Virus genome (UHGV): UHGV-1351770
Direction: 5' to 3' (one strand)
DNA length: 64,000 nt
DNA from: a virus
Of the stretch, positions 6,700 through 62,633 are shown in pieces. Each line of letters opens with the position of its first letter. Positions within the stretch are counted from its first letter, which is position 1. The position numbers and the translations under genes are program-made. A model generated the notes under the pieces. It searched no databases. It saw only the letters and a program-made list of their open reading frames with translations, and was not told where the DNA came from.

Positions 6700-6728
6700 A
6701 GTAGTCTTAGTTAGAGAAGGAGAGTGTA

Positions 6729-8603: not shown

Positions 8604-8606
8604 GCC

Positions 8607-8640: not shown

Positions 8641-8645
8641 TTTAT

Positions 8646-8700: not shown

Positions 8701-8702
8701 CT

Positions 8703-8984: not shown

Positions 8985-8993
8985 GGAACAAGA

Positions 8994-9197
8994 ATGAAAA
9001 ACGTAAAACATCTTAAATATCGCTTAATTTACAACGGACGTATGGAAACAGAAGACCTGGCCCAATTAGCTATTAATTCTAATGAGGTTACAGTGCGTGC
9101 GCTGGCAATTGAAAAGTTGCGTGCCTCTTATGAAAATCGTGTTATGGAACTAGAGGAGAAACTTTATGGCATTCTCGAAGCCGATGCTACCAGATAA
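8994..9197 (+). CDS. hypothetical protein (67 aa)
   Basis: ORF in operon context; AGGAAC before the ATG. Confidence 0.5.
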   Translation: MKNVKHLKYRLIYNGRMETEDLAQLAINSNEVTVRALAIEKLRASYENRVMELEEKLYGILEADATR

Positions 9198-9387
9198 GGG
9201 TTTAAACTCCGCTTTGGAAAACGCATTAATGCAGCACTGGGAAACTGGCTATAAGGATGGTGTTGAATCCTGCGCTACTATGCTAGAAGTTATTGCTAAT
9301 ACCTTAATGGAGAAAGGTAACAAAGAATTAGCTGAGCTGTTAGACAGTATTGGGCAAAACTTTAGAGAACAGGTGAAAAATGCGTAG
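9166..9387 (+). CDS. hypothetical protein (73 aa)
   Basis: Overlaps its neighbours by short start/stop overlaps, suggesting translational coupling. Confidence 0.5.
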   Translation: MAFSKPMLPDKGLNSALENALMQHWETGYKDGVESCATMLEVIANTLMEKGNKELAELLDSIGQNFREQVKNA

Positions 9388-10195
9388 ATTAATTATTATT
9401 AGCGGTGCAGGTTTGAGTGTTGAAAGTGGTGTACGAGCCTTCCGTACTGATACTACTAGTGGTAAAGCATTATGGGATGATTATGATCTAGAAGAAGTAT
9501 GTAATATTCATGCCTTTCGTGGTAATTTTTATCATAAAACCCATATGTTTTACAACAAGCGTCGTGAAGAGCTAAAAACTGTTGAACCCAATCTTGCGCA
9601 TTTGCGTATTGGTGAATGGTATAAACAATACCCTGGTCAAGTAGTAAACTTGACCACCAACGTAGATGACCTTATTGAGCGTGCTGGCGTTCCACATAAT
9701 GACATTCTGCACATTCACGGATATTTAAAAGAGGTTGTTGTAGCTGATAGCTACAATAGTAGCAATAAACGGATTATTGACGTAGGATACAATTCTATTG
9801 ATCCAGATGATTATAAATGGGTTAAACCTAATGTAATCTTCTTTGGAGAGCATGCTCCTGCATATGCAGAAATGTACAATGTTTTTGATGGTATTACCAG
9901 TCAGGATATGATCGTTGTGGTTGGTTGCTCTAACCAAGTAATTAACTTCTACTGGGAATTATTTCCTGTTCTTAATTTGACTGCTGCCAAGCTAATGATT
10001 GTTAACTACTATGATAGTGCACTAGCGGAGGAACCGGGCTATCAAGGTATGACTCGTAGTGAGATGTACCAGCTGGAAGAACGCGGTATCCCTTACTGGA
10101 GTAAAGGTGCGGTAGATGCTTTCAGTGATCCTGATTTTATTGCTCGTGTAGAAGCTCATTTAGGGGGTAGACCTTATGTGTCAGGAAATAAGTAA
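9380..10195 (+). CDS. Sir2-family NAD-dependent deacylase/ADP-ribosyltransferase-like protein lacking the zinc ribbon
   Basis: 271 aa. Rossmann motifs SGAGLSVESGVRAFR, TTNVDDLIERAG, HIHGY and VKPNVIFFGE are present. The CxxC...CxxC zinc module between them is absent. Confidence 0.8.
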   Translation: MRRLIIISGAGLSVESGVRAFRTDTTSGKALWDDYDLEEVCNIHAFRGNFYHKTHMFYNKRREELKTVEPNLAHLRIGEWYKQYPGQVVNLTTNVDDLIERAGVPHNDILHIHGYLKEVVVADSYNSSNKRIIDVGYNSIDPDDYKWVKPNVIFFGEHAPAYAEMYNVFDGITSQDMIVVVGCSNQVINFYWELFPVLNLTAAKLMIVNYYDSALAEEPGYQGMTRSEMYQLEERGIPYWSKGAVDAFSDPDFIARVEAHLGGRPYVSGNK

Positions 10196-10688
10196 TACTC
10201 CAATTATTTTTCTAGACATTGATGGGGTGCTCAATTCGAGCATCTCCCACCATCATGCACCTGATGATGAAAAGATTTTCTTTGGAAGTGACTGGGTTTT
10301 CAAACCGCTTCTCAAGGCTTTTCAGGACTTTATTCGTCCTTCTCCGATAATGATTGTTGGAGTATCATCTTGGTTCTCTGTCAGGAATGAGATGGAGAAC
10401 GTTCAGATTATGACCAGATTAGGTCTTATCGATCGTTTTCTTGGTACAACGGATTTTACTGGTGGTGGATTATCTAGGGGTAATTCTGTTCTTCGCTTCG
10501 TTGAAAAGCATAAGCTCAAACATTGGTGTGTGCTGGATGATGCCGGTGCTATGATGTATCAGTATCCAACGGTTATAGTCAATGGTAGGACTGGGATAAA
10601 TCTTCAAGATTTAAAAGCTGTTAGCTATATGCTAGAATTTAGTCCAGATCTTGAAATGTGTAAATCCTTGCAACAATTTAAGGTGTAA
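10176..10688 (+). CDS. HAD-superfamily phosphatase-like protein
   Basis: 170 aa. Motif I FLDIDGVLN, motif II VGVSS, C-terminal VLDDAG. Overlaps the Sir2-like gene by 20 nt. Confidence 0.65.
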   Translation: MCQEISNTPIIFLDIDGVLNSSISHHHAPDDEKIFFGSDWVFKPLLKAFQDFIRPSPIMIVGVSSWFSVRNEMENVQIMTRLGLIDRFLGTTDFTGGGLSRGNSVLRFVEKHKLKHWCVLDDAGAMMYQYPTVIVNGRTGINLQDLKAVSYMLEFSPDLEMCKSLQQFKV

Positions 10689-10690
10689 AT

Positions 10691-11119
10691 ATGTTCAATA
10701 ATGTATTCTCTAAAGAAGCTAACCCAATTTTGGTTAACTTTTGGCGTACTCTCCCAGCTAGCCTGTATAATGAGGTTATTAACTCTTTGAAAATATGGTG
10801 TGAGAATAACGAAATCTCCTTTGCTTTTAAAGATGATATTGATGAGGCTCCCTGTATTGGTTTAATTGTGCAGGTAGAGGAGGGTCTTGAAGAGATTGTC
10901 GGCTGGAAAGAGTTAGATGAAATGGGCTTAGTTTTTGCGTTAAACTATAAGCTGTTTATGCCTGCTAAGCATCGCCTCGTTGTTAATTATAAAACTAGTG
11001 AATCTCCTGGTTTTCAGGTTAATGAACGTTATGGTTGGTCTTACTCACCGGAAGAAGTAAATGAGGGGATTCAGAAACTTCGCCGTTTTGGTTATCAAAT
11101 TCCGGGTTTAACTGCCTAA
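10691..11119 (+). CDS. hypothetical protein, paralog A of a tandem pair
   Basis: 142 aa. Shares PCIG, MGLVFALN and C-terminal GYQIPGL blocks with the next ORF. Confidence 0.6.
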   Translation: MFNNVFSKEANPILVNFWRTLPASLYNEVINSLKIWCENNEISFAFKDDIDEAPCIGLIVQVEEGLEEIVGWKELDEMGLVFALNYKLFMPAKHRLVVNYKTSESPGFQVNERYGWSYSPEEVNEGIQKLRRFGYQIPGLTA

Positions 11120-11128
11120 GGGGGCATA

Positions 11129-11518
11129 ATGGAACAAGTATATTGGCGTCAGATTGACCCTAGTTTGGTGAAACGTGCGGAGAAGCTGCTACAACGTTGG
11201 TTGGGGGTAAGACAAGCCTCCTTCACTTTTCCTGAGCAGCAAACGGATGATCCATGTATTGGCGTTTTCCTGTCTGGATATGCCGAGGAATGGGAGATGG
11301 ATTGGAATGAATTGTCCGCTATGGGTTTAATTGTTGCCCTAAACTTCTCTATATTCCATCCACGTGGTTTGGCCATATGTCGTGTGCCGGATGATGGTTG
11401 TTCGCCCCATCTTTTACAGGTGGAAGATGATATTTGGGAGTACACTCCAGATATTCTCAAAGAAGCTAAAGAACAGTTAAACCGTGTTGGGATCTATGTT
11501 CCGGGATTAAATGACTAA
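11129..11518 (+). CDS. hypothetical protein, paralog B of a tandem pair
   Basis: 129 aa. Carries PCIG, MGLIVALN and GIYVPGL blocks collinear with paralog A. Confidence 0.6.
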   Translation: MEQVYWRQIDPSLVKRAEKLLQRWLGVRQASFTFPEQQTDDPCIGVFLSGYAEEWEMDWNELSAMGLIVALNFSIFHPRGLAICRVPDDGCSPHLLQVEDDIWEYTPDILKEAKEQLNRVGIYVPGLND

Positions 11519-11544
11519 TGATTTTTATTAGCTGAACTCTGATT

Positions 11545-11570
11545 ACCGAGTCATTTTGGCTCGGTTTTAT
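11545..11570 (+). terminator. intrinsic terminator closing the 8703-11518 operon
   Basis: accgag-tcattttgg-ctcggt hairpin followed by tttat. Confidence 0.6.
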
Positions 11571-11613
11571 CCGTACTCAAGACCAATGATAGCACCATCC
11601 GGAAAATTTTACT

Positions 11614-11641
11614 TGCAGGATGCTCAAAATCTTGATATAAT
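11614..11641 (+). promoter_or_regulatory. early sigma70-type promoter (TTGCAG, 16 bp, TATAAT)
   Basis: ttgcag 11614..11619 and tataat 11636..11641. A second candidate (ttgcta...tacaat) lies around 11683..11712. Confidence 0.55.
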
Positions 11642-11689
11642 ATTTATATTGAATTGAGAGACATTAGTAAAAATTGATTTTGCTAATTT

Positions 11690-12140
11690 TTCTTGTTTAC
11701 AATCCGCGATACGGAACAGTTAGGCTGCCCCATTAAGGGTTGTTTTAACTGTTACGTGTTAGTTTTTAAACAAATAGTTAATAGAATACTTAGCGATCTG
11801 CGTCCCGTAGGAACCCTGGTAAGGCCTCGAAGCAACCTAGATAGAGGTGGTTGTGAAGTGAGACGGGAGGAGTGAAAAACTCCGAGACGTGATTCTGTAA
11901 GTTATACTGCATCTAGTATGAGCTAGTATATGAAGCATTAGGTGAGCAAATCTGGCTTAGCGGCCATCCTCAAGGATTTGTGCGGTATAGCAAAGCAGCA
12001 GCGCAGCGTGAAAGTGGAAGTTGCCACCCCACTTCAGTATTTGCGATTAATTTGTTGAGAAATTGACAGTAACAGTTGTTCTATTCTTTCTGAATAGTCC
12101 TAAAGAAAACTTATTTCATTTCCAACACAGGAGTATTGTT
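11690..12140 (+). other. about 440-nt untranslated, structure-rich leader upstream of the PrimPol-helicase gene (candidate regulatory RNA or ncRNA)
   Basis: No credible ORF (only a 60-aa ORF with no RBS). Several local hairpins, for example aacagtta/taactgtt, ggagt-GAAAA-actcc, and directly repeated gagacg. GC content is higher than in the flanking regions. Confidence 0.35.
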
Positions 12141-14930
12141 GTGTTCTCAATCCTACAAGGTCATGCAGGATTTCATCGCGATTTAGCTACAGGCAATTGG
12201 CGAGAAGTTAAAGCAGAAGACTATCTTTTTGCTAAAAGATTTTCCTCAAAGCATCCTGAAGGTAAACCAGCTTCAATGCCCTTCAAGTTTGATGTAATTG
12301 ATGAAGTTGATCCGCAAACCCTAGTAGAAATGCTTCCTCTTATGAGACGTTTAACGTCTGACCCTCATATCGTTGCGGTACGAGGTAGATGTCTTGCACC
12401 TAAAAATAATGTGCGACGTAAGAAGGGCAACTTTAATGTATCTAACCCAAGCAATATAATTGCAATGGACGTGGATGGTATTGTAGATACAGGTGGTTGT
12501 AACAAGTTTGATCTTGTTGGCATGGCTCGACATATTATTAGAATGTTAAATAGTATTAGTGAGGATATGTTTCCTCTTGATGCAGGGTTTATCGCTCATG
12601 CATCGTCTTCGGCTGGGCTAAAACCGGGTATCCGAATGCACTTAATACTAGAATCTAATGTTAAAGTAACTCAGGGTCAAATCAAATTCTTATTTACATC
12701 TATCAACGAAAGTAGTAGACAAAAGTATGGCTTTGATATTGCCGACTTAGCTTATTACTCTTCCGTACAGCTCCATTATTTTGCAGATCCGTTATTTACC
12801 GATGGTATAGTAGATCCGTTTAAAGCGGAGGGTGCTTCACGTCTGGTATTTGTTAAGGGTTCTAAAGTAAATTTACCCAATAATCTGGTTGACTATGAAA
12901 CAGCTAGAGGTGAGTTTAAGGAGGAGTTTTACTCTTTACTCGATCAAATTAAAGGTAAAAAAGCTGCCTCTGATAAAGTAGAGGAAACTATCAGCGAACT
13001 AGAAGAAGCTGAGGATGGAGTGTATCTACGTATCATACCTAAACTCTATCACAGAGCCTTAGAGGATGGTGTTGATTTTGCATGGCTAGAAAAAGAAATC
13101 CGTCCAGCCTTATCAGAATATATTGCAACTAAAGATAACAGTCGCAATATTCAAGATTACTTTAATAACGGTCGTAAACAGGCTCTGAAAGCATTTGTTA
13201 ATAATTCTAAACGTGATATACCTGATGTTTTAAAGGGTATTCCACTCAAAAAGCTAGAAACTAATTCTCTAGAAACTGATAACTTCTTGAAATTAAATAC
13301 TGTACCACCAGAAGGTTATATGACTTTTGTAAAAGCAAGTCTAGGTACAGGTAAAACTACAGCGGTTGTGCGTTGGTTAGATTCAGGAGTTATTAAAGGT
13401 AATTTCTTAGCAATTACCAATACTCGAGCACTGGTATCTTCAAATGCTAAGAAATTTAGTGCAGGACAATATGATAAGTCTGTAGATATGCTTAATTTTA
13501 AGCGTGGTGCTATTGACCGTATGTCCACAACTATTCACTCTTTGCATAAGTTCAAGAGTTTTATTGGTCAAATCGATGCAATCTTTATCGATGAATGTGA
13601 TGCTGTAATGAATGACCTACTATTCGCCCCGGTTGTTAAACAACGTCGTGAATGTATTCAGGTTCTTCGGGATATTCTTGCAACTGCAAAAATCATTATA
13701 TTATCTGATGGGGATATTAGTGCAGAAACAATTGAAGCATATGGTTCTTTGATTGAGTTTGATAAACCAGTAGCATTTTATAATCATCACCGTAAGATGC
13801 TGTCAAAAGCTCATGCTTATGAGTTTCCTGATGAATCCAGTATTTGGGTTGCACTTCAGACTTCTCTAGAAATGGGGGAGAAATCTATTCTGGTATCTGA
13901 TTGTGGCCCGGATGAACTGAATGAGAAGGGCATGGCGTTGCGTCGTAATACTGGTGCGTTAGTTAAGGAAATCCACTCAAATTCTACATCCGATGTAGAT
14001 ATTCGACGTATTCTGGATTACACAACTAATGAGCTAATTGATCAACAAATTGATTGCTTATTATGTAGTCCATCCGTAACAAGTGGTGTTGACTTCAACT
14101 ATTTTGATAACGTATTCGTTATTACTAGAACCAGCAACCAAGCGCCAAACATGCGTTTCCAAGCAATCAGGCGCGACCGTGGCGCTCAGAACATTTATTA
14201 TTTTATTGATAAATCTACGAGTGGATTCTCCGCAGGTTCTGAGCAATATAACATTGATGAAGGTTGGCTGGAGTTAGCACAGCAATTATACGCACGTCGC
14301 AGGGAGCTGGAATCTAGAAACTATACTAGTACTTTACGTTATTACTTGCTTGATCAGGGTGCAACTATTGATATTTTCAGCGAAAGCTGGGGAACTATCG
14401 AAGGTGCAGGAAAAGAGTATACGGAAGAGCGAATCAAAGCTATTTTGTATTCAACCCCTGATTATTGTGCTCCACGCCATGCAGATGCGTATGAAGCTAA
14501 ACTACTTCTTGTTCGCTATTATCATCTTGAGTCTATTAAAGATGTAACAGTTGAGCATGTTGAACAATATATCAAGGATAAACCGAATGATCGAGCGGCA
14601 TTCTTCCATAAAATGCACGAGATGTTCTGGGAAGATATTAAGAAGTGTTCAAATGTCACTATCAAACCATTCATAGAAGCTCTGAAAGGTAAGAAGAAAG
14701 ATTTCTTCCTTAAAACAGGTCAGAGTGCTAACCCAAAATATGCTAGAATGTATCTTGGTATGATGGGTATTGGTAAGGATATGAACACGGAGAATATTGT
14801 AGACTGGTACAGAACCTATTGTAAAATCGAGTGTATGCCAATCCCGTATAAGTTTATGACTGATGAGGAGAAACATATGCATGATGAAGCAATGGCAGAG
14901 CTAGGTGCTAGAAATGACAGTGAAGAATAA
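12141..14930 (+). CDS. primase-polymerase (AEP-like) fused to a Walker A/B NTPase helicase; putative origin-binding replication initiator
   Basis: GTG at 12141 with AGGAG at 12129..12133 (7-nt spacer); the track's TTG at 12063 has no RBS. N-terminus has IIAMDVDG (DxD) and an AHASSS...RMHLIL (sxH-like) motif. Middle has Walker A SLGTGKTT and Walker B IFIDECD. Confidence 0.7.
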   Translation: MFSILQGHAGFHRDLATGNWREVKAEDYLFAKRFSSKHPEGKPASMPFKFDVIDEVDPQTLVEMLPLMRRLTSDPHIVAVRGRCLAPKNNVRRKKGNFNVSNPSNIIAMDVDGIVDTGGCNKFDLVGMARHIIRMLNSISEDMFPLDAGFIAHASSSAGLKPGIRMHLILESNVKVTQGQIKFLFTSINESSRQKYGFDIADLAYYSSVQLHYFADPLFTDGIVDPFKAEGASRLVFVKGSKVNLPNNLVDYETARGEFKEEFYSLLDQIKGKKAASDKVEETISELEEAEDGVYLRIIPKLYHRALEDGVDFAWLEKEIRPALSEYIATKDNSRNIQDYFNNGRKQALKAFVNNSKRDIPDVLKGIPLKKLETNSLETDNFLKLNTVPPEGYMTFVKASLGTGKTTAVVRWLDSGVIKGNFLAITNTRALVSSNAKKFSAGQYDKSVDMLNFKRGAIDRMSTTIHSLHKFKSFIGQIDAIFIDECDAVMNDLLFAPVVKQRRECIQVLRDILATAKIIILSDGDISAETIEAYGSLIEFDKPVAFYNHHRKMLSKAHAYEFPDESSIWVALQTSLEMGEKSILVSDCGPDELNEKGMALRRNTGALVKEIHSNSTSDVDIRRILDYTTNELIDQQIDCLLCSPSVTSGVDFNYFDNVFVITRTSNQAPNMRFQAIRRDRGAQNIYYFIDKSTSGFSAGSEQYNIDEGWLELAQQLYARRRELESRNYTSTLRYYLLDQGATIDIFSESWGTIEGAGKEYTEERIKAILYSTPDYCAPRHADAYEAKLLLVRYYHLESIKDVTVEHVEQYIKDKPNDRAAFFHKMHEMFWEDIKKCSNVTIKPFIEALKGKKKDFFLKTGQSANPKYARMYLGMMGIGKDMNTENIVDWYRTYCKIECMPIPYKFMTDEEKHMHDEAMAELGARNDSEE

Positions 14931-35902: not shown

Positions 35903-38070
35903 CTTTTTAGTTTTGCATTCTCGTAAACCCTTCTGTTTGATTTACCTATATCGCAATAAGGGAATCCATCATTATCGCCTTCGGCAGATCCGAAAGCAAG
36001 AATAATTGCCGCACCAGATTGATGACCTCTAGTATCGAAAACACGAGGCGCAGCATTTGGCGTTATACTCCAGTTTTTATTAGCTTCCACAAGTATTGTA
36101 AACGGCAAATTGTAAAGGTTGTTTTTTATTGGCAATGTAACCATATCACTTGCCCGTGTAACTGGAGTTGCTTCTGTAATAATAAATGATGAAGCGCACG
36201 CCCCGCCTTCAACTTGAGGGGTAGCAATATAAATATAATCATCTGCACCAGTGCCCTCTCCCTCTTTTGCTGGTGCATACTGCACCATTGCACCGATCAT
36301 ATTTTCTGTATCAAGCGCTTTAATTGTTGCCTCAAAGAAAATCCATTTGCTTGCTTCATCTTTAACAGCCCTTGCAGTAATACGATTTGCAGCGCCGCCA
36401 GATTTTTCAATTGATAAATCTGTCAGATTTACGTAAGCATCACCCAAAAATGTATAAGCAGATCCATCGTAGTTTTCAAATCGTAATCGGCATCTTAAAT
36501 TTGGAGTCCCACTTTGCGCCCTGCATGATATGGTTACATACTTTTCATTTCCTGTTACATCAAAACCTCTACTGCCGGAAACGGTTACTATGTTAATCGC
36601 TGAAGTTTGCCCTACCATTTCTGGTTTTAATGTAAATTTTGCGTACTGGAATCCGAAATCATCTACACCTGATCTATCTAAGATCATATTTGATGACTTG
36701 TTCCATTTTGAAGGATTGGTGCTATTTATAAGAAGGTTTGTTCTTTGCCCCTCAATGAGCAAACCATCCTTTTCAAATCTAGGTTCATCAATCCCCGCAA
36801 CAGTTAATACACCTGATTTATTAATATATGTCGCAGTTGATGCACGTGTAAAGCTAACAATCTTATCACTAGGCAGTGTTATTTCCTCATCACCGACTGT
36901 TATTTTTTTATAGCCTGGTGCAAAGCCGGTGATCATATCTAGAGAATCGTTAAACGGTATCCATACATCTGGAAGAGGTTGAATGTCGGGGGTAGAATTA
37001 GCAGCAGCTTCTGATCTATCAGCCTCAGTTTTTGAACGATCGGCTTCAGTTTTAGCAGTATTAGCACTATTAGCAGCAGCAGTAGCCTGTCTCCCCGCTT
37101 CTGCTGCAGAATTAGCAGCATTAGTTGCAGAAGTTGCAGCTTGGTTTTTTAAAGTTGTTGTCTCAGCTACCGCGCTATCTTTAATACCTTGTGTATCCGT
37201 TTTTAACTGCGCAACATCTGCCTTTATAGCTGTTGTCTCTGTTACAGCACTGTTTTTAATGGCCTGAGTATCTGATTTTAGCTGCTCAACATCTGATTTT
37301 AAGCCTTGAATAGTAGTTACTGACTGCCTAGCTGAAGTTGCGGAACTAGCTGCGTTAGTCTCACTAGCTTTGGCTTTAGTCTCACTAGCTTTTGCATTAG
37401 TTTCGCTAGTTTTAGCCTTTGTTTCGGAAGTTTTTGCAGCAGAAGCTGATGTGGCAGCTTGTGTAGAGAATGTTTCCGCCTCATTCCTAAAACCACTGGA
37501 ATCCGCAGCGGATGCAGCAGCATTAGTCTCACTGATTTTTGCATTATCCTCACTAAGTTTTGCCGCTGCAGCCGAAGCAGCAGCATTAGTTTCACTAGCC
37601 TTAGCATTAGTCTCGGAGGCCTTAGCTTTGATTTCACTAGACTTTGTATTAGTTTCTGATGTTTTTGCATTAGTCTCGGAGGTTTTAGCCTTAGTTTCAC
37701 TAGCTTTCGCATTAGTCTCGGATACTTTAGCTGCTGCGGCTGATTCTGCAGATCTATCCGCTGATGCAGCAGATTGAGTAGCAGATGTAGCAGACTGAGT
37801 AGCAGAAGCTTCTGAAGCTACGGCAGAAATAGCAGCTTCCTGCTCCGAATTCTTAGCATTAAGCTCTGAGGTCTTAGCTGCTATCTCAGAATCTTTTGCA
37901 GCCGCAGCAGATTTAGCAGCGGCCTCTATAGAAGATACTAACTCACTAGCAGTAATAGAACTAATAGAATTTCCAAGAATTACTGTATATCTAGGAAATT
38001 TACTAGCAGTAGCTTTCGTATCATCTATATTCAGTATTTGTTGCACAATAATTTTAGTAGTTACTGCCAT
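35899..38070 (-). CDS. L-shaped tail fibre proximal subunit (LtfA-like), Ala/Ser/Thr-rich with tandem heptad repeats
   Basis: 723 aa. Long runs of AK(A/T)SETN heptads and a duplicated about 25-aa block; fibrous composition. Position equivalent to T5 pb1. Confidence 0.7.
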   Translation of the reverse strand: MAVTTKIIVQQILNIDDTKATASKFPRYTVILGNSISSITASELVSSIEAAAKSAAAAKDSEIAAKTSELNAKNSEQEAAISAVASEASATQSATSATQSAASADRSAESAAAAKVSETNAKASETKAKTSETNAKTSETNTKSSEIKAKASETNAKASETNAAASAAAAKLSEDNAKISETNAAASAADSSGFRNEAETFSTQAATSASAAKTSETKAKTSETNAKASETKAKASETNAASSATSARQSVTTIQGLKSDVEQLKSDTQAIKNSAVTETTAIKADVAQLKTDTQGIKDSAVAETTTLKNQAATSATNAANSAAEAGRQATAAANSANTAKTEADRSKTEADRSEAAANSTPDIQPLPDVWIPFNDSLDMITGFAPGYKKITVGDEEITLPSDKIVSFTRASTATYINKSGVLTVAGIDEPRFEKDGLLIEGQRTNLLINSTNPSKWNKSSNMILDRSGVDDFGFQYAKFTLKPEMVGQTSAINIVTVSGSRGFDVTGNEKYVTISCRAQSGTPNLRCRLRFENYDGSAYTFLGDAYVNLTDLSIEKSGGAANRITARAVKDEASKWIFFEATIKALDTENMIGAMVQYAPAKEGEGTGADDYIYIATPQVEGGACASSFIITEATPVTRASDMVTLPIKNNLYNLPFTILVEANKNWSITPNAAPRVFDTRGHQSGAAIILAFGSAEGDNDGFPYCDIGKSNRRVYENAKLKR
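37000..37800. repeat. in-frame tandem 21-bp (heptad-encoding) repeats plus a duplicated about 75-bp block inside ltfA
   Basis: Repeated gctttagtctcactagctttt-type units on the plus strand. Peptide repeats KASETNA, about 15 copies, in two arrays. Confidence 0.7.
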
Positions 38071-57172: not shown

Positions 57173-58489
57173 TTATTTACCACGGGAAATAGAGTAAATT
57201 CCATAGCGCAGAGCATCACAAAGGTGAGAGTTAGCATCATGACGTGGTTTTTCACGTGATAATTTTTCTTCACCTTCTTGGAAATCCCACTTATAGTTCT
57301 GCAATGCATGGATTAATGAGGAACATGAAGCATCTACAATAATCTTACCCTGCTGGAATAGCGCCTGTAAACATGCTAGACCATCTAGAACAGATTTTTT
57401 AGCCGGAGCTGATGCAATTTCATGTTCATAAGCTAAGTCCTGGCGGAACTGAGCTGCCGCGGAGTCAACGAAGATACGATCTACGTTATAACGATCTATA
57501 CAGTGCTGAATATACGCAGCATGTTGGGCTGTGGTTTTCTCCGCCTGCTGGTATTCTTCTAGTACATAGTAAGTATCCGTATCGTAATGATATTTAATAG
57601 TAAGAACTGCTGTAGGATCACGATAACCAACGTCAATACCGAGCAACGTTTCGAAGGCTTCATCATCTTTAAAGAAGTGACGCATACCTTTGAGGTCTTT
57701 AACATGATCTATAGCATTAAAGGTATCAAAGATCTGACCTTCGAATACAGAGAAGTCAGCCTCGTATTCTTGGCGGAAGTAGTTTTTACTAACTGTACGA
57801 CGTGCTTCCTCAATGTCATTCAAATCCGCACGGGGGTTATCACGATATGTACCATGAATAGACACCCAGTTAGGTAACGTATCATCAAATCCGTAGGCAT
57901 AAAACTCTTTAAACCAGTTACCTCCACGAGGAGTAGAGATAAATAGAGCCTTAGAATTAGGTTTATCTAGGGTAGGACGCAACTGAACCCTGAAAGCATC
58001 ACCACCCACATCGGAAATTGCCGCTTCGTCAAAGATGATAAAATCGTATGAACGTCCAACCGCGGAGTCAGCCTGAGCCGCGGAAGCTAGTTTAAATAGA
58101 GAACCATTAGCTAACTCAATCTCTTTATCTTTAGCGTTTTCACGTTCGGTTTGTAGGCCATACTTTTTAATAAGACCACGAATCTGAGACCATCCGATGT
58201 TGGCCAGCGAGTAGTTAGGGGCAACTACTAGTACCTTCACATTAGGTTCCAGCAATTTTAGGAACCCAAGTGTATACGCTATAAAAGACTTGCCCACACG
58301 GCGTGATACACACGCCGTTACAAAACGATGTCTAGGATCTTCTAGCGCATTGATAATTGCTATTTGAGGACCATTAGGTGTAATGCCCTCTTGTGCTAGT
58401 ATTCCCGAAACAGGTAGACGAAAGAAACGTTTGTCTATTCCGAAATCAATAACATCAACTGTGTTAACGTAGGGTCTTGATACTTCCAT
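57173..58489 (-). CDS. terminase large subunit
   Basis: 438 aa, the same as T5 TerL. Walker A RRVGKS, plus a C-terminal RNaseH-like nuclease region. Confidence 0.88.
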   Translation of the reverse strand: MEVSRPYVNTVDVIDFGIDKRFFRLPVSGILAQEGITPNGPQIAIINALEDPRHRFVTACVSRRVGKSFIAYTLGFLKLLEPNVKVLVVAPNYSLANIGWSQIRGLIKKYGLQTERENAKDKEIELANGSLFKLASAAQADSAVGRSYDFIIFDEAAISDVGGDAFRVQLRPTLDKPNSKALFISTPRGGNWFKEFYAYGFDDTLPNWVSIHGTYRDNPRADLNDIEEARRTVSKNYFRQEYEADFSVFEGQIFDTFNAIDHVKDLKGMRHFFKDDEAFETLLGIDVGYRDPTAVLTIKYHYDTDTYYVLEEYQQAEKTTAQHAAYIQHCIDRYNVDRIFVDSAAAQFRQDLAYEHEIASAPAKKSVLDGLACLQALFQQGKIIVDASCSSLIHALQNYKWDFQEGEEKLSREKPRHDANSHLCDALRYGIYSISRGK

Positions 58490-58971
58490 TACTTCTTACC
58501 TCCAGTAGCTAGGGAAGTAATTAAGTCCATGTAGTTTTGATCCCCAGCTCCAGCAATAATATTATTCTGGATATTGGTCTGATTAGCAGGAGCACGGACG
58601 GCAGCTTTAGCTTTTTCTAGCTCCACCATCATTTTCATCTCCTCCATTTTCATCTTATGTGCCTTCCAGAGAATATCCATAATATCTTGGTCAGAACCCA
58701 TACCAGTTTCTTCTAGTTCCTCCAGCTTACGTTTAATAACTTCATCTAGAACACCAAACAAACGATCCCTGTTACGGAATCCACTCTCCATAAAAATATC
58801 ATTTAAGTAGTTCTTAACTTCACTACGATTCATAATATCTCGGAAAGCAATTTCGGACATTCCAAGACTACGTGCGGCAGAAGGCACATCGCTGCCACAC
58901 TGTAAATAAGCTTCGATCACATCCATCCCTTCAGGGGACATAAGATCTGGTACTAATACATCATTTGCCAT
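58489..58971 (-). CDS. putative terminase small subunit / DNA-binding packaging protein (160 aa)
   Basis: Immediately upstream of TerL. Predicted N-terminal HTH ([19 protein letters not shown]). Confidence 0.5.
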
Positions 58972-58981
58972 ATTTCCTCCT

Positions 58982-60739
58982 TTAGGTAAGGCGTTGAACT
59001 GTTACTCTTAATCTAGGTAGGAAAACTGCGCTACCCAAACTCACGTGCATAACTACTCCTAACTCTACATTTCCATTTCCTAGATTTTTAACGGTGTATA
59101 TAAAACTGTTTCTACTAAGAGCATTGTTAGGCGTGTATCTAAAAGCAGATGTAGTATGAAAAGGTACTAGATAGCCCACAGGTAGCGTTAAAATCTGGTG
59201 GAATATTGCATCCCCGCCGCTATAGCTATATGCTCTTCTTCCTTGCACTTGAAACACACCATTATTCCATGTATTAGCGGGAACACCTGCGCAATTAAGA
59301 TTACCTGATATAACTTCAGTAGTAAGAATTACTGTAGCATTTCCGCCTGGTATACCTAGCCCAATAGTTGATAAACCAACGTATCTATCACCCGTTCCTG
59401 GATAGTGGGGAGTAATATCATCTCCCATATAGGAACTACCTACATTTCCACCAAAAAGTCGCAGTGGAACTGCTGAAGGTCCCCAAACAACCCCATGCTC
59501 ATTACCAATAGTATTATCGTTAGAGTTTACATACCACTGTTTACCAGCAGAGAATTTGTAAATACTAATTTGAGACTTAGCCCCTCCGTAGTCCACAGGA
59601 GACCATAAACTCCCATTACTAGAACCTACAAGTTCACATCTTGCAGTGGTATCCCCAAAAACTCCGGTATACGCTGCGTTATTCCCTATATACTCCATAT
59701 CAGGACGATAACCTAAGTTACCAAAGGCATTCTGATTTATAAATTTATACCTGGTATTAGGGAGACTCACCCCTTTAATTATGAAATTAGAAGGAGATAT
59801 AAGAATATCAGAACCAGTAAAGGGGTTGCCGGAAATACTCATACCACCATTCGAGTATCTTAAATTAAGAACATACCAAATAACCTTAGTAGGAGTTATA
59901 TTATACCAATCCTGTATTACTGTAGGGTTGCCAGACTGATTGGCCAGATTAGTAGTAGATCCCCTACAAACAAATCTGTTCCCGCCGTCGTGGTACATAG
60001 TATTTACATTACCTGGGAGCCCTTGTCTAACCCCACCATATCCACGTATATTAGAATTGCAAACATAAAACCAATCATGCCCTCTATGTGCCGCTCCTAG
60101 AGGCGACATCCATCCAGGATCCCAATAGTATGGGTTATTACCATCTACAGGTACTGTGCTACTATTAGTAGGAAAACCTAATTGTGCAAAGGCTTCTGCA
60201 ACAGTAACACCTACAGGAGCTCCCGCACCGGGCCTAACTATACCGTGATAGGTACTATGTAACGTAGTACCCCCTGTGCCGCTCCTAGAGATAGATTCTT
60301 CGTGCCCTAGAGAGGGATTATAATTATAAGTGCCAGATGCTAGACTATTACCAAATGCAAATCCACTGGTTTGAGAAACACTAGCAAAAGATCTAAAGGG
60401 ATCTGCTTGAGTAGCAACTATAGTTTGACCAACTTTACTCTGAGTACCATTAAGAAAAGCCCTATGAGTACCATTAATCTCAATAGCAGTTAGTATAACT
60501 CTACCTGGGTCATTGGATTTAATATTTATTATGTCAGAGGGCATCTGACATACAAAAAACCCATTTCCAGCATTTCCTAACCCAGCCTCATAAGTACCGT
60601 CAACTAGGACAAATGGCATATCACTATGAAAAATACTATTGGCATTTGGACTATAGTGACGATTAATGTCACCACCAGATTCAGTATTTAAAGATAGTAC
60701 GGTCTTACCATCGCTATATTTTCCAGCGAAAAAACCCAT
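58982..60739 (-). CDS. receptor-binding protein (pb5/Oad-like, 585 aa)
   Basis: First gene of the late block next to divergently oriented llp. Gly/Asn/Tyr-rich beta-protein. Synteny with T5 oad-llp. Confidence 0.65.
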
Positions 60740-60764
60740 ATAATCTCCTATTATAAAAATGTAT

Positions 60765-60824
60765 TTGCTTTCATCCCTCTATTTTGCTATAATAGATTCA
60801 TAAATTAGAAATGGAGAGATAAAT
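60765..60824 (+). promoter_or_regulatory. PN25-type early promoter plus leader driving llp (TTGCTT, 17 bp, TATAAT)
   Basis: ttgctt 60765..60770 and tataat 60788..60793, followed by agattcataaattagaaatggagag. Confidence 0.8.
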
Positions 60825-61091
60825 ATGAAAAAGTTTGTGATTGCACTAGTTGCCGCAGTTATGTTATCTGGTTGTGCACCTGCTCCCAAACCATTTTGTA
60901 CGGGATTTGTAAAATCTTTTGGTGGTGCGGGAGAAGAACATTACGGTCTCAAGATTCAAAAAGTTCGTATTAAGGGAGATCGCTTCCCAGTAGTACAGCT
61001 CCGTACTAAGTTTGGATGGTGGGATCTCAGTCAGTTTGACCTTAAATATGGTGATTGTAAATTTAAACTAGAGCAATCTAACTACCTGTAA
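60825..61091 (+). CDS. llp: lytic-conversion lipoprotein (Llp-like receptor-blocking lipoprotein)
   Basis: 88 aa. Signal peptide with lipobox LSGC. Divergent from the RBP gene, as in T5. Confidence 0.8.
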   Translation: MKKFVIALVAAVMLSGCAPAPKPFCTGFVKSFGGAGEEHYGLKIQKVRIKGDRFPVVQLRTKFGWWDLSQFDLKYGDCKFKLEQSNYL

Positions 61092-61268
61092 TTAGTATAA
61101 AGCAAAAAGACATCCAAGTAAACTAAATTTTTATTTTTTGGATGGTATATTGGCAGAAACCACTATGTAAGAAAAGTAGAAGTCCTTTCTAGGAAGTCAC
61201 GAGCATAGTTGGTTATGCACAAACTATAAAATATTTTAAAATATCATATTTATTGGAGCATGAAAGAT

Positions 61269-61397
61269 ATGTCAAATAAAAGAAAGAACAGACGCGGAGA
61301 AGTGTACGAAGCGTGGATTAATATTTACGGATTTGGTTTTGTGTTATTCCTAGTCTTCGTAGGTTTTTGGTTAGCAGCTATGGCGGGGTGGATTTAA
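61269..61397 (+). CDS. small membrane protein (42 aa, single TM)
   Basis: MSNKRKNRRGEVYEAWINIYGFGFVLFLVFVGFWLAAMAGWI. Its stop overlaps the next ATG (tAATGg). Confidence 0.45.
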   Translation: MSNKRKNRRGEVYEAWINIYGFGFVLFLVFVGFWLAAMAGWI

Positions 61398-61501
61398 TGG
61401 AAGTAATAATTATTGTTTTATTAGTTGTGATAATTCTAGGGCAGTGTGTCTTGGATAACCACTTAGCTCGTATTGAACGTAAGCTGCGGGAATATAAATA
61501 A
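61397..61501 (+). CDS. small membrane protein (34 aa, single TM)
   Basis: MEVIIIVLLVVIILGQCVLDNHLARIERKLREYK, stop/start-overlapped on both sides. Confidence 0.4.
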   Translation: MEVIIIVLLVVIILGQCVLDNHLARIERKLREYK

Positions 61502-61746
61502 TGTTTAGTATTATAATTGCTTTTATTATCGGGATACTCGCGGGAGTTTTCGGGACGACTGCGGCAATCAACAAGCATCGTAAATATATTGCGGGAGTGT
61601 CGCGGGGGATTGCGGAAAGGGAGCGGAAGTTTGATGAGAAACGTGCGGAGTTTGAGAGAGAATGGTCGGATGGATCTCGGACGTCACGGAAGAGATTCCG
61701 TGAGTTTAGACCAGAACACAGGTTTGATGACCCTTCTATGCGCTAA
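61501..61746 (+). CDS. small membrane-anchored protein with charged C-terminal tail (81 aa)
   Basis: N-terminal TM segment IIIAFIIGILAGVFGTTAA, then an Arg/Glu-rich tail. Local GC-rich codon usage. Confidence 0.5.
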   Translation: MFSIIIAFIIGILAGVFGTTAAINKHRKYIAGVSRGIAERERKFDEKRAEFEREWSDGSRTSRKRFREFRPEHRFDDPSMR

Positions 61747-61849
61747 TTTGACTTTTGCCAATTTCTTTGGATTACGTACGCGTGGGTGTGTCCAGTGGCC
61801 TCCCAGATGAGAATGAGTCTCATTACCGCCCGGTACTTAGCAAGCTAAT

Positions 61850-61882
61850 AGTCACGGCATGTTATCATTACACACCGTGACT
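61850..61882. terminator. possible bidirectional hairpin between the small-TM operon (+) and the dmp-like gene (-)
   Basis: agtcacgg...ccgtgact 8-bp stem. The T-run is weak. Confidence 0.3.
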
Positions 61883-61898
61883 ATTTCAACTTTAATTA

Positions 61899-62633
61899 TT
61901 ACGCAACTTTTAATTTCTCAATATATTGTTGAGGACTGCAACTATATTCTGCGCGTTCTTCTTCGGTCATACCTTCCCAACATAATTGCAGGCGGTCGGC
62001 TAGGAACTGATAATCATTATCATCCTCAAGAGATTCATCGATAAAGGTTTCACCTATCAATGTAACCCCAATCGATAGAATATCGTTAACGGCTTGCGCG
62101 TCCAGCGTTTTAAATCCGTATGATGCCGCCGCTGATAGCACGCCTTTATGATCATCAATCATTGTGAAATCAGCGTTCGGATATAATTGTTTAAATAACT
62201 CAAAGTAATGGCTTTTATAAATAGCGTCTTTGCTGTGGTATATCTCGCTAACTTTATCAGCCTCAAAATATTTGTGTAGTGTATCGCGGGAAAATACACG
62301 GATATTACTATCCCCACGCCCTCGCAATCCTTGTTTGCGCAAATAATAATAATCCGACTTGCTCATCAGTCGAGCGGTGCAAATAATGTTTAAAGTATTT
62401 GAGTCATTCATACATTGGCGCATATATGTAACAAGGGGCAATAAAGTATCTTGCATTATTAAATCATGTTTGCAGGCTTCATTTTTATACTTATTTAAAT
62501 CTAAATTGCCCTCGCTATCAAAGCAAGGCGCTACACGATGGAAAGAATTAATGATAGTGCCGTCCAGATCCCAAATCATAACGCGGGAAATATGCGGGAA
62601 ATTACGGGTAATATTCGTTTTAACTTGATTCAT
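61899..62633 (-). CDS. dmp: HAD-family 5'-deoxyribonucleotidase (T5 dmp-like)
   Basis: 244 aa. HAD motif I MIWDLDGTII. Its size and position next to the late/llp end are typical of the T5 pre-early gene dmp. Confidence 0.7.
   Translation of the reverse strand: MNQVKTNITRNFPHISRVMIWDLDGTIINSFHRVAPCFDSEGNLDLNKYKNEACKHDLIMQDTLLPLVTYMRQCMNDSNTLNIICTARLMSKSDYYYLRKQGLRGRGDSNIRVFSRDTLHKYFEADKVSEIYHSKDAIYKSHYFELFKQLYPNADFTMIDDHKGVLSAAASYGFKTLDAQAVNDILSIGVTLIGETFIDESLEDDNDYQFLADRLQLCWEGMTEEERAEYSCSPQQYIEKLKVA

What the first reader, a model, noticed from the sequence alone, without database searches (positions are those of the whole stretch)
61269..61746. Cassette of three stop/start-overlapping micro-ORFs encoding single-pass membrane peptides in a GC-rich patch
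Three consecutive ORFs (42, 34 and 81 aa) each begin with or contain a hydrophobic TM helix and are linked by tAATGg / taATGt overlaps, indicating translational coupling. The third has an Arg/Glu-rich cytoplasmic tail. The segment 61500-61830 is markedly more GC-rich (runs such as gcgggagtgtcgcgggggattgcggaaaggg) than the rest of the window. It sits between llp and the pre-early-like genes, a position where accessory/moron genes are common. Candidate functions are membrane-acting superinfection exclusion, a holin/antiholin-like or spanin-like set, or inhibitors of host membrane-bound defence or DNA-injection machinery. The GC bias suggests acquisition from outside.
Basis: seen in the sequence. 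Interest (0 to 1): 0.6.

Follow-up and report, generated by a model that had tools for sequence, protein, structure and literature searches.

The report
Phased CGG array beside T5 genome end
The three tiny membrane-protein genes are real but already-annotated, dispensable T5 genes; the "GC-rich patch" is about 13 CGG motifs spaced one DNA helical turn apart, written into the third gene about 100 bp from the phage genome end, and it is probably a DNA packaging/end-cutting signal.

Summary
Three ATG-started ORFs (61269-61397, 61397-61501, 61501-61746) are joined by TAATG overlaps, and each has one hydrophobic helix. They are homologues of T5.159, T5.160 and T5.162. They are conserved in every T5-like locus examined, are under purifying selection, and were scored "Not Fit" in a published T5 knock-down screen. 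As genes they are known and ordinary, with function unknown.

The "foreign GC-rich DNA" reading is wrong. The GC excess is strand-specific G and sits largely at synonymous sites. It comes from 12-13 CGG(R)A motifs on the + strand (61487-61689) lying on a 10.53-bp lattice in all three codon phases. All four lattice Arg codons are the rare CGG; the nine other Arg codons never are.

The same lattice occurs in T5 and phiR2-01. In Klebsiella Sugarland-like phages it lies inside a non-homologous gene. In Proteus T5-like phages a different 10.5-bp-phased motif array lies mostly or entirely in non-coding DNA. In phages with mapped ends the array lies about 85-100 bp from the terminal-repeat cut (GGTG|TGTCC; window 61788|61789).

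Best reading (inferred): a cis-acting terminase recognition or terminus-generation element overprinted on ORF3. The main rivals are an antisense Rho-loading site and binding sites for another DNA-binding protein.

The parts
61269..61397 (+). ORF1, 42 aa, homologue of T5.159 (phrog_8596). Basic N-terminus (5 K/R) followed by a C-terminal TM anchor. Predicted N-in, tail-anchored.
   Evidence: dN/dS 0.13; start codon and SD conserved
61397..61501 (+). ORF2, 34 aa, homologue of T5.160 (phrog_6369). TM helix at residues 1-19 and a short basic amphipathic C-terminus. This is the short allele typical of the 3-gene form of the cassette. T5.161 and a 51-aa extra ORF in relatives have the same TM-plus-charged-C-terminus layout and look like paralogues.
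61501..61746 (+). ORF3, 81 aa, homologue of T5.162 (phrog_6447 'membrane protein'). N-terminal TM helix followed by a long Arg/Glu-rich helix. The coding sequence is overprinted by the CGG array.
   Evidence: (dN/dS 0.17)
61487..61692 (+). Helically phased array of 13 CGG (12 CGGR) at 61487, 61530, 61541, 61551, 61562, 61592, 61603, 61613, 61624, 61646, 61667, 61678 and 61687. Consensus TnKCGGRAG. Best-fit period 10.53 bp. All on the + strand and in all three codon phases.
61760..61788 (+). Conserved module immediately left of the terminal-repeat cut (AATTTC...GATTACGTACGCGTGGGTG). Homologous sequence is present in T5, Sugarland, Proteus and Vibrio T5-like phages.
61789..61835 (+). First bases of the direct terminal repeat. 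The predicted physical left genome end is GGTG|TGTCC, cut between 61788 and 61789. It includes the conserved AGTCTCATTACCGCC at 61816-61830.
   Evidence: the T5 record starts TGTCCACTGCC and the same 9-mer lies at 61785-61793
61847..61885 (.). Strong hairpin between the repeat boundary and the dmp stop codon. It is a likely terminator or 3' end stabiliser of the pre-early dmp transcript. The stem is kept with different sequences in T5-type, phiR2-01 and Sugarland alleles.
   Evidence: (z -2.4 / -3.2)
60825..61091 (+). Context: Llp/Cor-type receptor-blocking lipoprotein gene (88 aa, lipobox). A consensus-like sigma-70 promoter TTGCTT-17-TATAAT lies at 60765-60793.
58489..58971 (-). Context: putative small terminase subunit (T5.156 homologue, phrog_3802). 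It overlaps the start of the large terminase gene (57173-58489). It is the candidate binding protein for the array.
61899..62633 (-). Context: dmp (deoxynucleoside-5'-monophosphatase), the first gene inside the terminal repeat.

Best explanation
Two layers share this DNA.

(1) Protein layer. ORF1-3 are real, translationally coupled genes for three very small inner-membrane proteins, the T5.159/T5.160/T5.162 family. They are expressed after second-step DNA transfer at about the level of the neighbouring llp gene. They are accessory and dispensable in laboratory infection. Their most likely role (inferred, weakly) is an envelope or superinfection-related accessory function alongside Llp.

(2) DNA layer. 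The 'GC-rich patch' is a cis-acting DNA element. It consists of 12-14 copies of (T)nKCGGRA(G), all on one strand, placed every 10.5 bp or a multiple of it, so they lie on one face of the double helix over about 160-200 bp. It is written into ORF3 by the choice of rare G-ending codons. It ends about 100 bp before the conserved cut site GGTG|TGTCC that creates the left end of the 10-kb terminal repeat.

The most likely mechanism (inferred) is as follows. An oligomeric DNA-binding protein, most plausibly the small terminase encoded 2.5 kb away, binds or wraps this phased array at the concatemer junction. That positions or arrests the large terminase for the sequence-specific terminal cut.

Shown: the array, its phasing, its nucleotide-level selection, its conservation across genera, and its fixed neighbourhood to mapped genome ends.

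Inferred: the binding protein and the packaging role.
For: Genes:
- PHROG hits.
- T5 annotation as T5.159-162, each noted as having a single TM domain.
- Frames and overlaps conserved in 28 loci.
- dN/dS 0.12-0.29 in frame, about 0.4-3.5 out of frame.
- Family restricted to T5-like phages.
- All of T5.159-162 and llp scored 'Not Fit' in the CRISPRi-ART T5 screen (PMC11879866 source data).
- Bas33 RNA-seq reads over the homologous block are comparable per kb with llp, and drop to zero when only first-step DNA enters (PMC13250531 dataset).

Array statistics:
- 12 CGGR in 250 nt, against a window mean of 0.77 (sd 1.0) and a maximum of 5 elsewhere.
- Phase coherence R = 11.2 of 12 at 10.5 bp. The periodogram peak is sharp: 0.92 at 10.5, 0.10 at 10, 0.17 at 11, 0.34 at 3.
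- It is the top signal among all 3-mers on both strands of the 64-kb window; the next best is 8.7.
- The same protein recoded with background codon usage gives a mean of 2.2 CGG and a maximum R of 6.4 in 20,000 trials. Permuting synonymous codons reaches the observed R in 1e-4 of trials.
- The four lattice Arg codons are all CGG (2% background usage) and the nine other Arg codons never are. The five lattice Ala codons that supply the C of a CGG are all GCG.
- Lattice positions are identical across about 26 T5-like loci.

Other genera:
- phiR2-01: R 9.9.
- Klebsiella vB_Kpn13-P1: period 10.50, R/n 0.94.
- Sugarland: nine in-phase CGG inside a non-homologous S/G-rich gene.
- Proteus VTCCBPA139: GTCA-type 21-bp repeats, period 10.54, mostly non-coding.
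- Proteus Stubb: TCGT-type units in non-coding DNA.

Genome ends:
- The T5 record starts at TGTCC of GGTG|TGTCC.
- PhageTerm-based ends of Sugarland and Stubb fall within 1 nt of the homologous position.
- The last array unit lies 86-100 bp from the end in the window, Sugarland and Stubb.

Precedent and candidate protein:
- Short-repeat arrays flanking a terminal repeat exist in T7, with 12 TAAAG at a 13-bp period right of the left repeat.
- The putative TerS gene is nearby and was scored 'Fit'.
Against: - No binding or packaging experiment exists. The role is inferred from position and geometry only.
- T5 injects its left end first. By the usual last-in-first-out rule (my inference), packaging should start about 10 kb away at the right end of the repeat, so a simple 'initiation pac site' does not fit directly. 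The array would have to act in the left-end (termination or nicking) cut or in repeat duplication.
- HNH endonuclease insertions in several relatives put 500-700 bp between the array and the cut, or split the array, so spacing is not strict.
- No matching array is seen at the other repeat boundary in T5.
- Vibrio phage phi 3 has no phased array. It has five tandem copies of the cut-site module instead.
- The antisense RNA of the array is C-rich (0.37 C, 0.16 G) and unstructured, as expected of a Rho loading site.
- G at third positions is also raised outside the CGG triplets: 0.36 against 0.15 expected.
- For the proteins, nothing indicates a function, and one natural allele is truncated to 35 aa.
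Confidence: 0.55

Rival explanations
1. The array is an RNA-level signal, a Rho-utilisation (rut) site on the minus-strand transcript. Pre-early or early transcription leaving the right terminal repeat past dmp would run antisense through ORF3. The C-rich, G-poor, unstructured, untranslated RNA would load Rho and stop read-through into the llp cassette (antisense) and the late genes oad/terS/terL, which lie on the same strand.
For: The antisense RNA over 61525-61700 has C 0.37 and G 0.16. It is essentially unstructured: -16 kcal/mol, z +0.29. G enrichment at synonymous sites extends beyond the CGG triplets. The gene layout makes read-through from dmp into oad possible. All T5 transcription uses host RNA polymerase (PMC7472727 abstract).
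Against: The period is sharply 10.5 nt (0.92) and not 11-13 nt (0.17-0.29), and it is kept over about 16 lattice positions, far more than a Rho hexamer needs. The conserved motif contains obligatory G's. The positional counterparts in Proteus phages (GTCA and TCGT units) are not C-rich on either strand yet have the same 10.5-bp phasing and the same distance to the genome end. A strong hairpin already follows dmp.
Confidence: 0.12
2. The array binds some other DNA-binding protein unrelated to packaging. Candidates are iterons of a replication origin lying inside a gene (as in lambda ori within gene O), a partition or condensation-type centromere, or a phage or host regulator coating this junction.
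For: Direct repeats at one or two helical turns are typical of iterons and of ParR/parC-type sites (my own knowledge). The Proteus version is a clean 21-bp tandem repeat. Indels in ORF3 alleles are often 21 nt, so units appear to be gained and lost.
Against: The element keeps a constant neighbourhood (86-100 bp) to mapped genome ends in three genera, together with a conserved cut-site module. No initiator-like gene is adjacent. It is unique in the 64-kb window and absent from T5 1-13000.
Confidence: 0.15
3. One reading: a horizontally acquired, GC-rich moron cassette whose only content is three membrane peptides acting as a holin/antiholin, a spanin, superinfection exclusion factors or anti-defence factors. 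On this view the composition is a relic of a foreign origin.
For: Small TM proteins sit at an accessory locus next to llp. PHROG places T5.162 in the category 'moron, auxiliary metabolic gene and host takeover'. Copy number of the T5.160-like genes varies between phages. The genes are dispensable in the laboratory.
Against: The cassette is present in all T5-like loci examined, across receptor types. The composition is G-only, strand-specific, motif-based and phased. The same motif array occurs in a non-homologous gene in Sugarland-like phages. No lysis genes are adjacent and predicted topologies leave nothing in the periplasm.
Confidence: 0.05
4. The 10.5-nt periodicity is a by-product of protein structure. 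An amphipathic or heptad helix repeats every 3.5 residues, which equals 10.5 nt, so a stripe of Arg/Ala/Gly along the ORF3 helix would create it.
For: ORF3 is predicted to be one long helix. Lattice residues fall at about 3.5-residue steps: G11, G15, G18, A22, A31, R35, A38, R42, and so on.
Against: Codon choice, not residue identity, makes the signal. Lattice Arg is always CGG and off-lattice Arg never is. With background codons the same protein gives a mean of 2.2 CGG and R of at most 6.4. Permuting synonymous codons destroys the phasing (p = 1e-4). The lattice persists in a Ser/Gly-rich non-helical context in Sugarland and in non-coding DNA in Proteus phages.
Confidence: 0.02

Closest known systems
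T5 genes T5.159, T5.160 and T5.162 (NC_005859), with T5.161 absent here; PHROGs 8596, 6369 and 6447
   Same: These are direct homologues: 76%, 69% and 86% amino-acid identity to T5. They share the order, the stop/start overlaps and the position between llp and the right terminal repeat.
   Different: The window has the 3-gene form, which lacks T5.161 and carries a 34-aa ORF2 allele. Some relatives have 4 or 5 genes. No function is known for any of them.
Short-repeat arrays flanking the T7 terminal repeat (SRL/SRR; the names and the pacB concept are from my memory of Dunn & Studier 1983 and Chung & Hinkle 1990)
   Same: Both are arrays of about 12 copies of a short oriented motif lying directly beside a direct terminal repeat of a phage with exact ends. 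I verified 12 TAAAG/CCTAAAG units to the right of the T7 left repeat.
   Different: The T7 period is about 13 bp and the array is non-coding, with arrays on both flanks. Here the period is 10.5 bp (the helical repeat), the array is embedded in a protein-coding gene, it occurs on one flank only, and the repeat is 10 kb rather than 160 bp.
pac/cos recognition sites bound by small terminase rings (SPP1 pacL/pacR, lambda cosB, P22 pac; from my own knowledge)
   Same: Repeated or phased elements lie next to the terminase cut site and near the terS gene. The geometry is compatible with DNA wrapped around an oligomeric ring.
   Different: No binding data exist. T5-like ends are exact and flank a 10-kb repeat. 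The array is next to the left-end cut, which by injection polarity should be the last-made cut. The motif and family are unrelated.
Rho-utilisation (rut) sites
   Same: The antisense RNA is C-rich, G-poor and unstructured, with regularly spaced C-containing motifs.
   Different: The period is 10.5 rather than 11-13. G's are conserved. The array spans about 160-200 nt. The Proteus counterparts are not C-rich.
Iterons inside a gene (lambda ori within gene O) and the parC repeats of plasmid R1 (from my own knowledge)
   Same: Direct repeats at one or two helical turns can overlap a coding sequence.
   Different: No initiator or ParR-like gene is adjacent. The element is tied to the genome terminus in several genera.

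Membership tests
T5.159 / T5.160 / T5.162 small membrane protein families (phrog_8596, phrog_6369, phrog_6447) | Significant full-length profile match | tested here: met
   E = 2.5e-30, 1.5e-18 and 1.2e-46, each covering the whole profile
T5.159 / T5.160 / T5.162 small membrane protein families | Synteny: between llp and the right terminal repeat, same strand, overlapping stop/start codons | tested here: met
Holin / antiholin | Small protein with at least one TM domain and a charged C-terminus | tested here: met
   ORF2 and ORF3 fit this generic description
Holin / antiholin | Genetic linkage to an endolysin or lysis cassette | tested here: not met
   Neighbours are RBP, llp and dmp. T5 lys is T5.040 at 19.9 kb (table).
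Holin / antiholin | Controls lysis timing, so loss changes fitness or lysis | tested here: inconclusive
   The published knock-down gave 'Not Fit' for T5.159-162, but lys was also 'Not Fit' in that screen, so the assay is insensitive to lysis genes.
Two-component spanin (i-spanin plus o-spanin) | i-spanin: N-terminal TM with a periplasmic coiled-coil domain. o-spanin: outer-membrane lipoprotein gene embedded in or adjacent to it. | tested here: not met
   The positive-inside rule puts the charged tails in the cytoplasm. The only lipoprotein nearby is Llp, a Cor-type receptor blocker with its own promoter. No embedded lipobox ORF was seen.
Known superinfection-exclusion proteins (Cor/Llp, Imm, Sp, Sie) | Sequence or profile similarity to a characterised member | tested here: not met
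   No Pfam, NCBIfam or PHROG hit other than the orphan families. Function by analogy remains possible.
Terminase recognition (pac-type) element | Lies next to the site where the genome end is cut | tested here: met
   The array ends about 100 bp from GGTG|TGTCC, the start of the T5 record. The distance is 86 bp in Sugarland and about 95 bp in Stubb, both with PhageTerm ends.
Terminase recognition (pac-type) element | Repeated or phased sequence elements under selection at the DNA level | tested here: met
Terminase recognition (pac-type) element | Bound by the small terminase and required in cis for packaging or end formation | not testable with these tools
   Needs EMSA or footprinting, recoded mutants, or plasmid-packaging assays.
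T7-type short-repeat arrays flanking a terminal repeat | Array of about 10 or more oriented short repeats immediately adjacent to the direct terminal repeat | tested here: met
   Window; T7 left flank, 12 units
T7-type short-repeat arrays flanking a terminal repeat | Arrays on both flanks of the repeat, non-coding | tested here: not met
   No array near the T5 left-repeat right end. Here the array is inside ORF3.
Rho-utilisation site | C>G, unstructured RNA of about 80 nt or more on the transcribed strand | tested here: met
   Antisense strand: C 0.37, G 0.16, z +0.29
Rho-utilisation site | C residues spaced about 11-13 nt; Rho-dependent 3' ends downstream | tested here: not met
   The spacing is 10.5 nt, with coherence 0.17-0.29 at 11-12 nt. 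The 3' ends are not testable here.

The most novel reading that the evidence does not exclude
The phased CGGRA array, together with the conserved GGTG|TGTCC module, is the as yet undescribed cis-acting packaging or terminus-generation signal of T5-like phages. A ring or filament of small terminase (T5.156, 'sciB') would dock on one face of about 15 helical turns of DNA and direct the exact left-end cut of the 10-kb terminal repeat. Because the site is overprinted on a protein-coding gene, the Arg/Glu/Gly/Ala-rich tail of T5.162 is partly a by-product of the DNA code.
Probability: 0.45. Interest if true: 0.7.

Novelty: new variant of a known kind. Interest (0 to 1): 0.55.

Why it matters
How T5-like phages make exact ends flanking a 10-kb terminal repeat is, to my knowledge, unresolved. 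No paper in the searchable library describes a recognition site for their terminase. I could not read the 2005 T5 genome paper.

The finding is a precisely phased, family-wide motif array at a fixed distance from three independently mapped genome ends. It turns the question into simple experiments: synonymous recoding, footprinting and plasmid packaging.

It is also a clean case of a protein-coding gene whose codon usage and amino-acid composition are shaped by an overlapping DNA signal. This cautions against reading local GC or codon anomalies as horizontal transfer.

There are practical consequences too:
- Engineering of T5-like therapeutic phages at the popular llp/RBP locus should avoid disturbing this element.
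- The conserved cut motif can correct terminal-repeat annotations, which differ by 17-96 nt between records.

The micro-ORFs themselves remain ordinary orphan accessory genes.

Tried and rejected
- Literature. No paper in the searchable library mentions T5.159-162, and none describes a T5 pac site or this array. The T5 genome paper and Zivanovic 2014 are not held. The two transposon-mutagenesis papers I opened contain no T5-like phage data.
- Protein homology. Pfam and NCBIfam gave only sub-threshold noise: LapA_dom at E 0.0065, SecE and BamK fragments. Large-database searches found only T5-like phage proteins.
- Structure. ORF3 is predicted to be one long helix, so no fold search was worthwhile.
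- Rfam. No hit in 60700-62000.
- Promoter and terminator scan. It found nothing above chance and missed the obvious llp promoter. A conserved -10-like TAnAAT lies about 45 nt upstream of ORF1 without a good -35. It therefore stays open whether the cassette has its own promoter or is read through from llp.
- Overlapping alternative-frame ORFs (for example 61517-61810, + strand). Rejected because out-of-frame dN/dS is about 1.
- Amphipathic-helix origin of the 10.5-nt period. Rejected.
- A second CGG array at the other repeat boundary. Not found in T5 1-13000.
- Bas33 RNA-seq per-gene counts. These are distorted for genes shorter than a read and the library is not strand-specific. Only region-level transcription and absence in the first-step-only condition can be used. 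My assignment of bas33_0187-0191 to the cassette rests on exact gene lengths, overlaps and neighbours, not on sequence.
Full report
WHAT THE WINDOW IS. The region belongs to a T5-like phage (Demerecviridae, Tequintavirus-like), and 323 phage records match 61100-61900. The local gene order is as follows:
- large terminase, 57173-58489 (-)
- putative small terminase, 58489-58971 (-)
- receptor-binding protein, 58982-60739 (-)
- Llp/Cor-type lipoprotein, 60825-61091 (+)
- the three micro-ORFs (+)
- dmp, 61899-62633 (-), followed by the pre-early genes.
In T5 itself the same place holds T5.159 (42 aa), T5.160 (35 aa), T5.161 (64 aa) and T5.162 (81 aa). Each is annotated 'contains single transmembrane domain', and the right terminal repeat starts 42 nt after T5.162.

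CHECK OF THE OBSERVATION. The three ORFs, their lengths and the two TAATG overlaps are exactly as described.
- They match phrog_8596, phrog_6369 and phrog_6447.
- In 28 related loci the frames, ATG starts and overlaps are conserved.
- Pairwise dN/dS is 0.13 for ORF1, 0.12-0.29 for ORF2 and 0.29 for ORF3. For ORF3 it falls to 0.17 when recombinant tails are excluded. The two other frames give about 0.4-3.5.
- The upstream ATG at 61260 is not conserved, while the GGAG before 61269 is.
- Hydrophobicity and flanking charges predict ORF1 as N-in and tail-anchored, and ORF2 and ORF3 with the TM helix at the extreme N-terminus and basic C-termini inside.
- AlphaFold2 gives ORF3 as one helix, residues 2-69, with mean pLDDT 74.
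- The cassette varies in copy number. There is a 3-gene form (this window), a 4-gene form with T5.161, and a 5-gene form with a 51-aa T5.160-like extra ORF.
- The ORF3 tail after RKRFR is replaced in several lineages. One allele is truncated to 35 aa.

WHAT IS KNOWN ABOUT THE GENES. No paper in the library names them.
- The CRISPRi-ART screen of T5 (PMC11879866, source data) scored T5.159, T5.160, T5.161, T5.162 and llp as 'Not Fit'. T5.156 was 'Fit' and T5.155 'Semi-Fit'.
- In Bas33 RNA-seq at 20 min (PMC13250531) the block with the same gene lengths and overlaps collects about 2,290 reads over 820 nt, against 1,108 over the 267-nt llp. It collects none when daunorubicin limits entry to first-step DNA. 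So the block is transcribed, and it is not pre-early. That library is not strand-specific.
- The families are confined to T5-like phages.
As genes they are real, already annotated, accessory and of unknown function.

THE GC-RICH PATCH. GC of 61500-61830 is 0.477 against 0.393 +/- 0.038, which puts it in the top 1.9% of windows.
- The excess is not general GC. In ORF3 the third-position G is 0.37 (0.42 in the tail), against 0.16 +/- 0.035 in 43 long ORFs of the window.
- None of the background windows tested reaches the ORF3 values (0 of 3001 for the 57-codon tail). Third-position C is below average.
- The rare codons CGG, GCG, GGG, TCG and ACG are preferred. The bias is present in all 20 distinct alleles.
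- The cause is 13 CGG on the + strand at 61487, 61530, 61541, 61551, 61562, 61592, 61603, 61613, 61624, 61646, 61667, 61678 and 61687. The spacings are 43, 11, 10, 11, 30, 11, 10, 11, 22, 21, 11 and 9.
- CGGR occurs 12 times in 250 nt, against a mean of 0.77 and a maximum of 5 anywhere else on either strand.
- The positions fit a 10.53-bp lattice with coherence 0.93. The periodogram peak is sharp: 0.92 at 10.5, 0.10 at 10, 0.17 at 11, 0.34 at 3.
- In a scan of all 3-mers on both strands of the whole window this is the top signal, R 11.2 against a next best of 8.7.
- The motif sits in all three codon phases.

IS IT A PROTEIN ARTEFACT? A helix repeats every 3.5 residues, which is 10.5 nt, so I tested this.
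- With the same protein and the window's codon usage, 20,000 simulated genes had a mean of 2.2 CGG (maximum 8) and R of at most 6.4.
- Permuting synonymous codons among identical residues reached the observed R in 1 of 10,000 trials.
- All four lattice arginines use CGG (2% of Arg codons in the background), and none of the nine other arginines does. The five lattice alanines that supply the C of a CGG all use GCG.
So the signal is selected at the nucleotide level.

CONSERVATION BEYOND THE GENE.
- The lattice positions (ORF3 nt 29, 40, 50, 61, 91, 102, 112, 123, 145, 156, 166, 177, 186) recur in about 26 distinct T5-like loci. They are also present in phiR2-01.
- In Klebsiella phage vB_Kpn13-P1 (dmp 60% identical) an unbiased scan again puts a CGG array on top, with 11 sites, period 10.50 and coherence 0.94. 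There it lies in the Ser/Gly-rich C-terminal half of a 151-aa TM protein with no PHROG match.
- Sugarland has nine in-phase CGG in the equivalent gene.
- In Proteus phage VTCCBPA139 the same place holds eleven GTC(A) units forming 21-bp tandem repeats, period 10.54, mostly downstream of the stop codon.
- In Proteus phage Stubb eight TCG(T) units are phased in unannotated DNA.
- Vibrio phage phi 3 lacks such an array. It has five tandem copies of an approximately 100-nt module that contains the cut-site sequence.

RELATION TO THE GENOME END.
- The T5 record begins TGTCCACTGCC, and the junction at the right repeat reads GAAGGTG|TGTCC. The window has GGTGTGTCC at 61785-61793, so the repeat should start at 61789.
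- The PhageTerm-defined end of Sugarland is ...TTTTACGTGAGGGTGG|GCTTAGAGGG.
- That of Stubb is ...TACGTGAGGGTGT|GTCCCAATAAC.
- Both fall within 1 nt of the homologous T5 position.
- A second motif, AGTCTnnTnACCGCC, about 30 nt inside the repeat, is also conserved in the E. coli, Proteus and Vibrio phages.
- The last array unit is about 100 bp (window), 86 bp (Sugarland) and about 95 bp (Stubb) from the cut.
- Several relatives carry an HNH endonuclease gene between the array and the cut, or inside the array, so the spacing can be stretched.

INTERPRETATION. Several things are shown directly:
- a strand-specific, helically phased array of a short motif
- its maintenance by synonymous codon choice
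- its conservation while the overlapping protein changes or disappears
- its neighbourhood to the terminal-repeat cut.
From established knowledge, motifs repeated once per helical turn present one face of the DNA to a cooperative binder. Small terminases are oligomeric rings that recognise packaging sites, often near their own gene. T7 has short-repeat arrays beside its terminal repeat; I verified 12 TAAAG units at a 13-bp period in T7, while the names SRL/SRR and the pacB concept are from memory. I therefore infer a terminase recognition or terminus-generation element, with T5.156 as the candidate binder.

Three caveats apply:
- T5 injects its left end first. By the usual last-in-first-out rule, which is my inference, this cut should be the last-made one rather than the initiation cut.
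- No counterpart exists at the other repeat boundary.
- There is no biochemical evidence.

The best rival is an antisense Rho-loading site. The minus-strand RNA is C-rich and unstructured. Against it, the 10.5 period, the conserved G's and the non-C-rich Proteus arrays all argue otherwise. Binding of another protein, such as an origin or partition-type protein, cannot be excluded.

THE PROTEINS. I can only say that they are small inner-membrane proteins with cytoplasmic charged segments. They are probably co-expressed with or near llp, are dispensable in the laboratory, and are restricted to T5-like phages. An accessory role at the envelope, for example exclusion at the inner-membrane step alongside Llp, is my best guess, with low confidence. 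Holin and spanin readings lack the defining context. Part of the Arg/Glu/Gly/Ala richness of the ORF3 tail follows from the DNA motif: CGG-GAx encodes Arg-Glu/Asp, and xCG-GGA encodes Ala/Ser-Gly.

VERDICT. The finding as written concerns known, ordinary orphan genes, and its horizontal-transfer inference is wrong. The compositional oddity it noticed leads to a conserved DNA element next to the genome end. I could not find this element described, and it is directly testable.

Noticed in passing
window 60765-60793: The llp promoter is TTGCTT-17 nt-TATAAT followed by AGATTCATAAAT. From memory this is nearly identical to the -10 and initial transcribed region of the classic strong T5 early promoter PN25. 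The consensus scan tool missed it.
   Followed up: no
window 61789-61890; alignment A1: The first ~100 nt of the terminal repeat exist as two very different alleles among close relatives, the window/chee24 type and the T5/L013/L006 type. The cut motif, the ACCGCC motif and a hairpin before the dmp stop are kept, with different stem sequences.
   Followed up: partly
L001 3469, L002 3392, L030 3296 (record annotations): Annotated terminal-repeat starts in chee24, Kenya-K37 and phiR2-01 lie about 17-96 nt to the right of the position homologous to the T5 end (GGTG|TGTCC). These boundaries are probably imprecise annotations.
   Followed up: partly
L031 3889-4356; L017-L028 downstream of ORF3; Bas33 bas33_0186: An HNH homing-endonuclease gene is inserted between ORF3 and the terminal repeat in many relatives. 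It replaces the ORF3 C-terminus and the last lattice CGGs. In the Klebsiella phage it appears to split the array.
   Followed up: partly
alignment A3 (ORF3 homologues): Three of the indels among ORF3 alleles are exactly 7 codons (21 nt). That is the smallest length preserving both the reading frame and the 10.5-bp phase, as if array units are gained and lost in pairs.
   Followed up: no
L034 7900-8400 (Vibrio phage phi 3): Five tandem copies of an approximately 100-nt unit, each containing the cut-site-like TTTTACGTGAGGGTGGG and AGTCTAATAACCGCC, precede the annotated right terminal repeat.
   Followed up: partly
L018/L016 between ORF1 and ORF2; Bas33 bas33_0190: An extra 51-aa ORF (MEWVIIGIF...RIETLLEERK) looks like a paralogue of T5.160. 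T5.161 has the same TM-plus-charged-tail layout. The cassette behaves as a small expanding and contracting gene family.
   Followed up: partly
phage records: Homologues of these micro-ORFs carry misleading names in some records: 'tail fiber protein', 'tail assembly protein', 'receptor blocking protein', 'H-N-H endonuclease'.
   Followed up: no
window 58982-61091: The 585-aa receptor-binding protein and 88-aa Llp are the type shared with DT571/2 (locus L011; Llp 97.7% identical), not the FhuA-binding T5 type; phiR2-01 carries an RBP and Llp of similar size at the same place. phiR2-01 is a BtuB-dependent phage, so the window's phage probably uses BtuB. Homology between the two receptor modules resumes only about 60 nt upstream of ORF1.
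   Followed up: partly
window ~37000-37950: The second-best 10.5-bp phased 3-mer signals in the window lie here (CAG R 8.7, also CTG, GCA and AGT), presumably a repetitive coding region. Not examined.
   Followed up: no
PMC11879866 annotation table: T5.156, the putative small terminase, is also listed under the old gene name sciB. From memory, 'sci' stands for the single-chain interruption (nick) phenotype. If so, this hints at a link between terminase and the T5 nicks.
   Followed up: no
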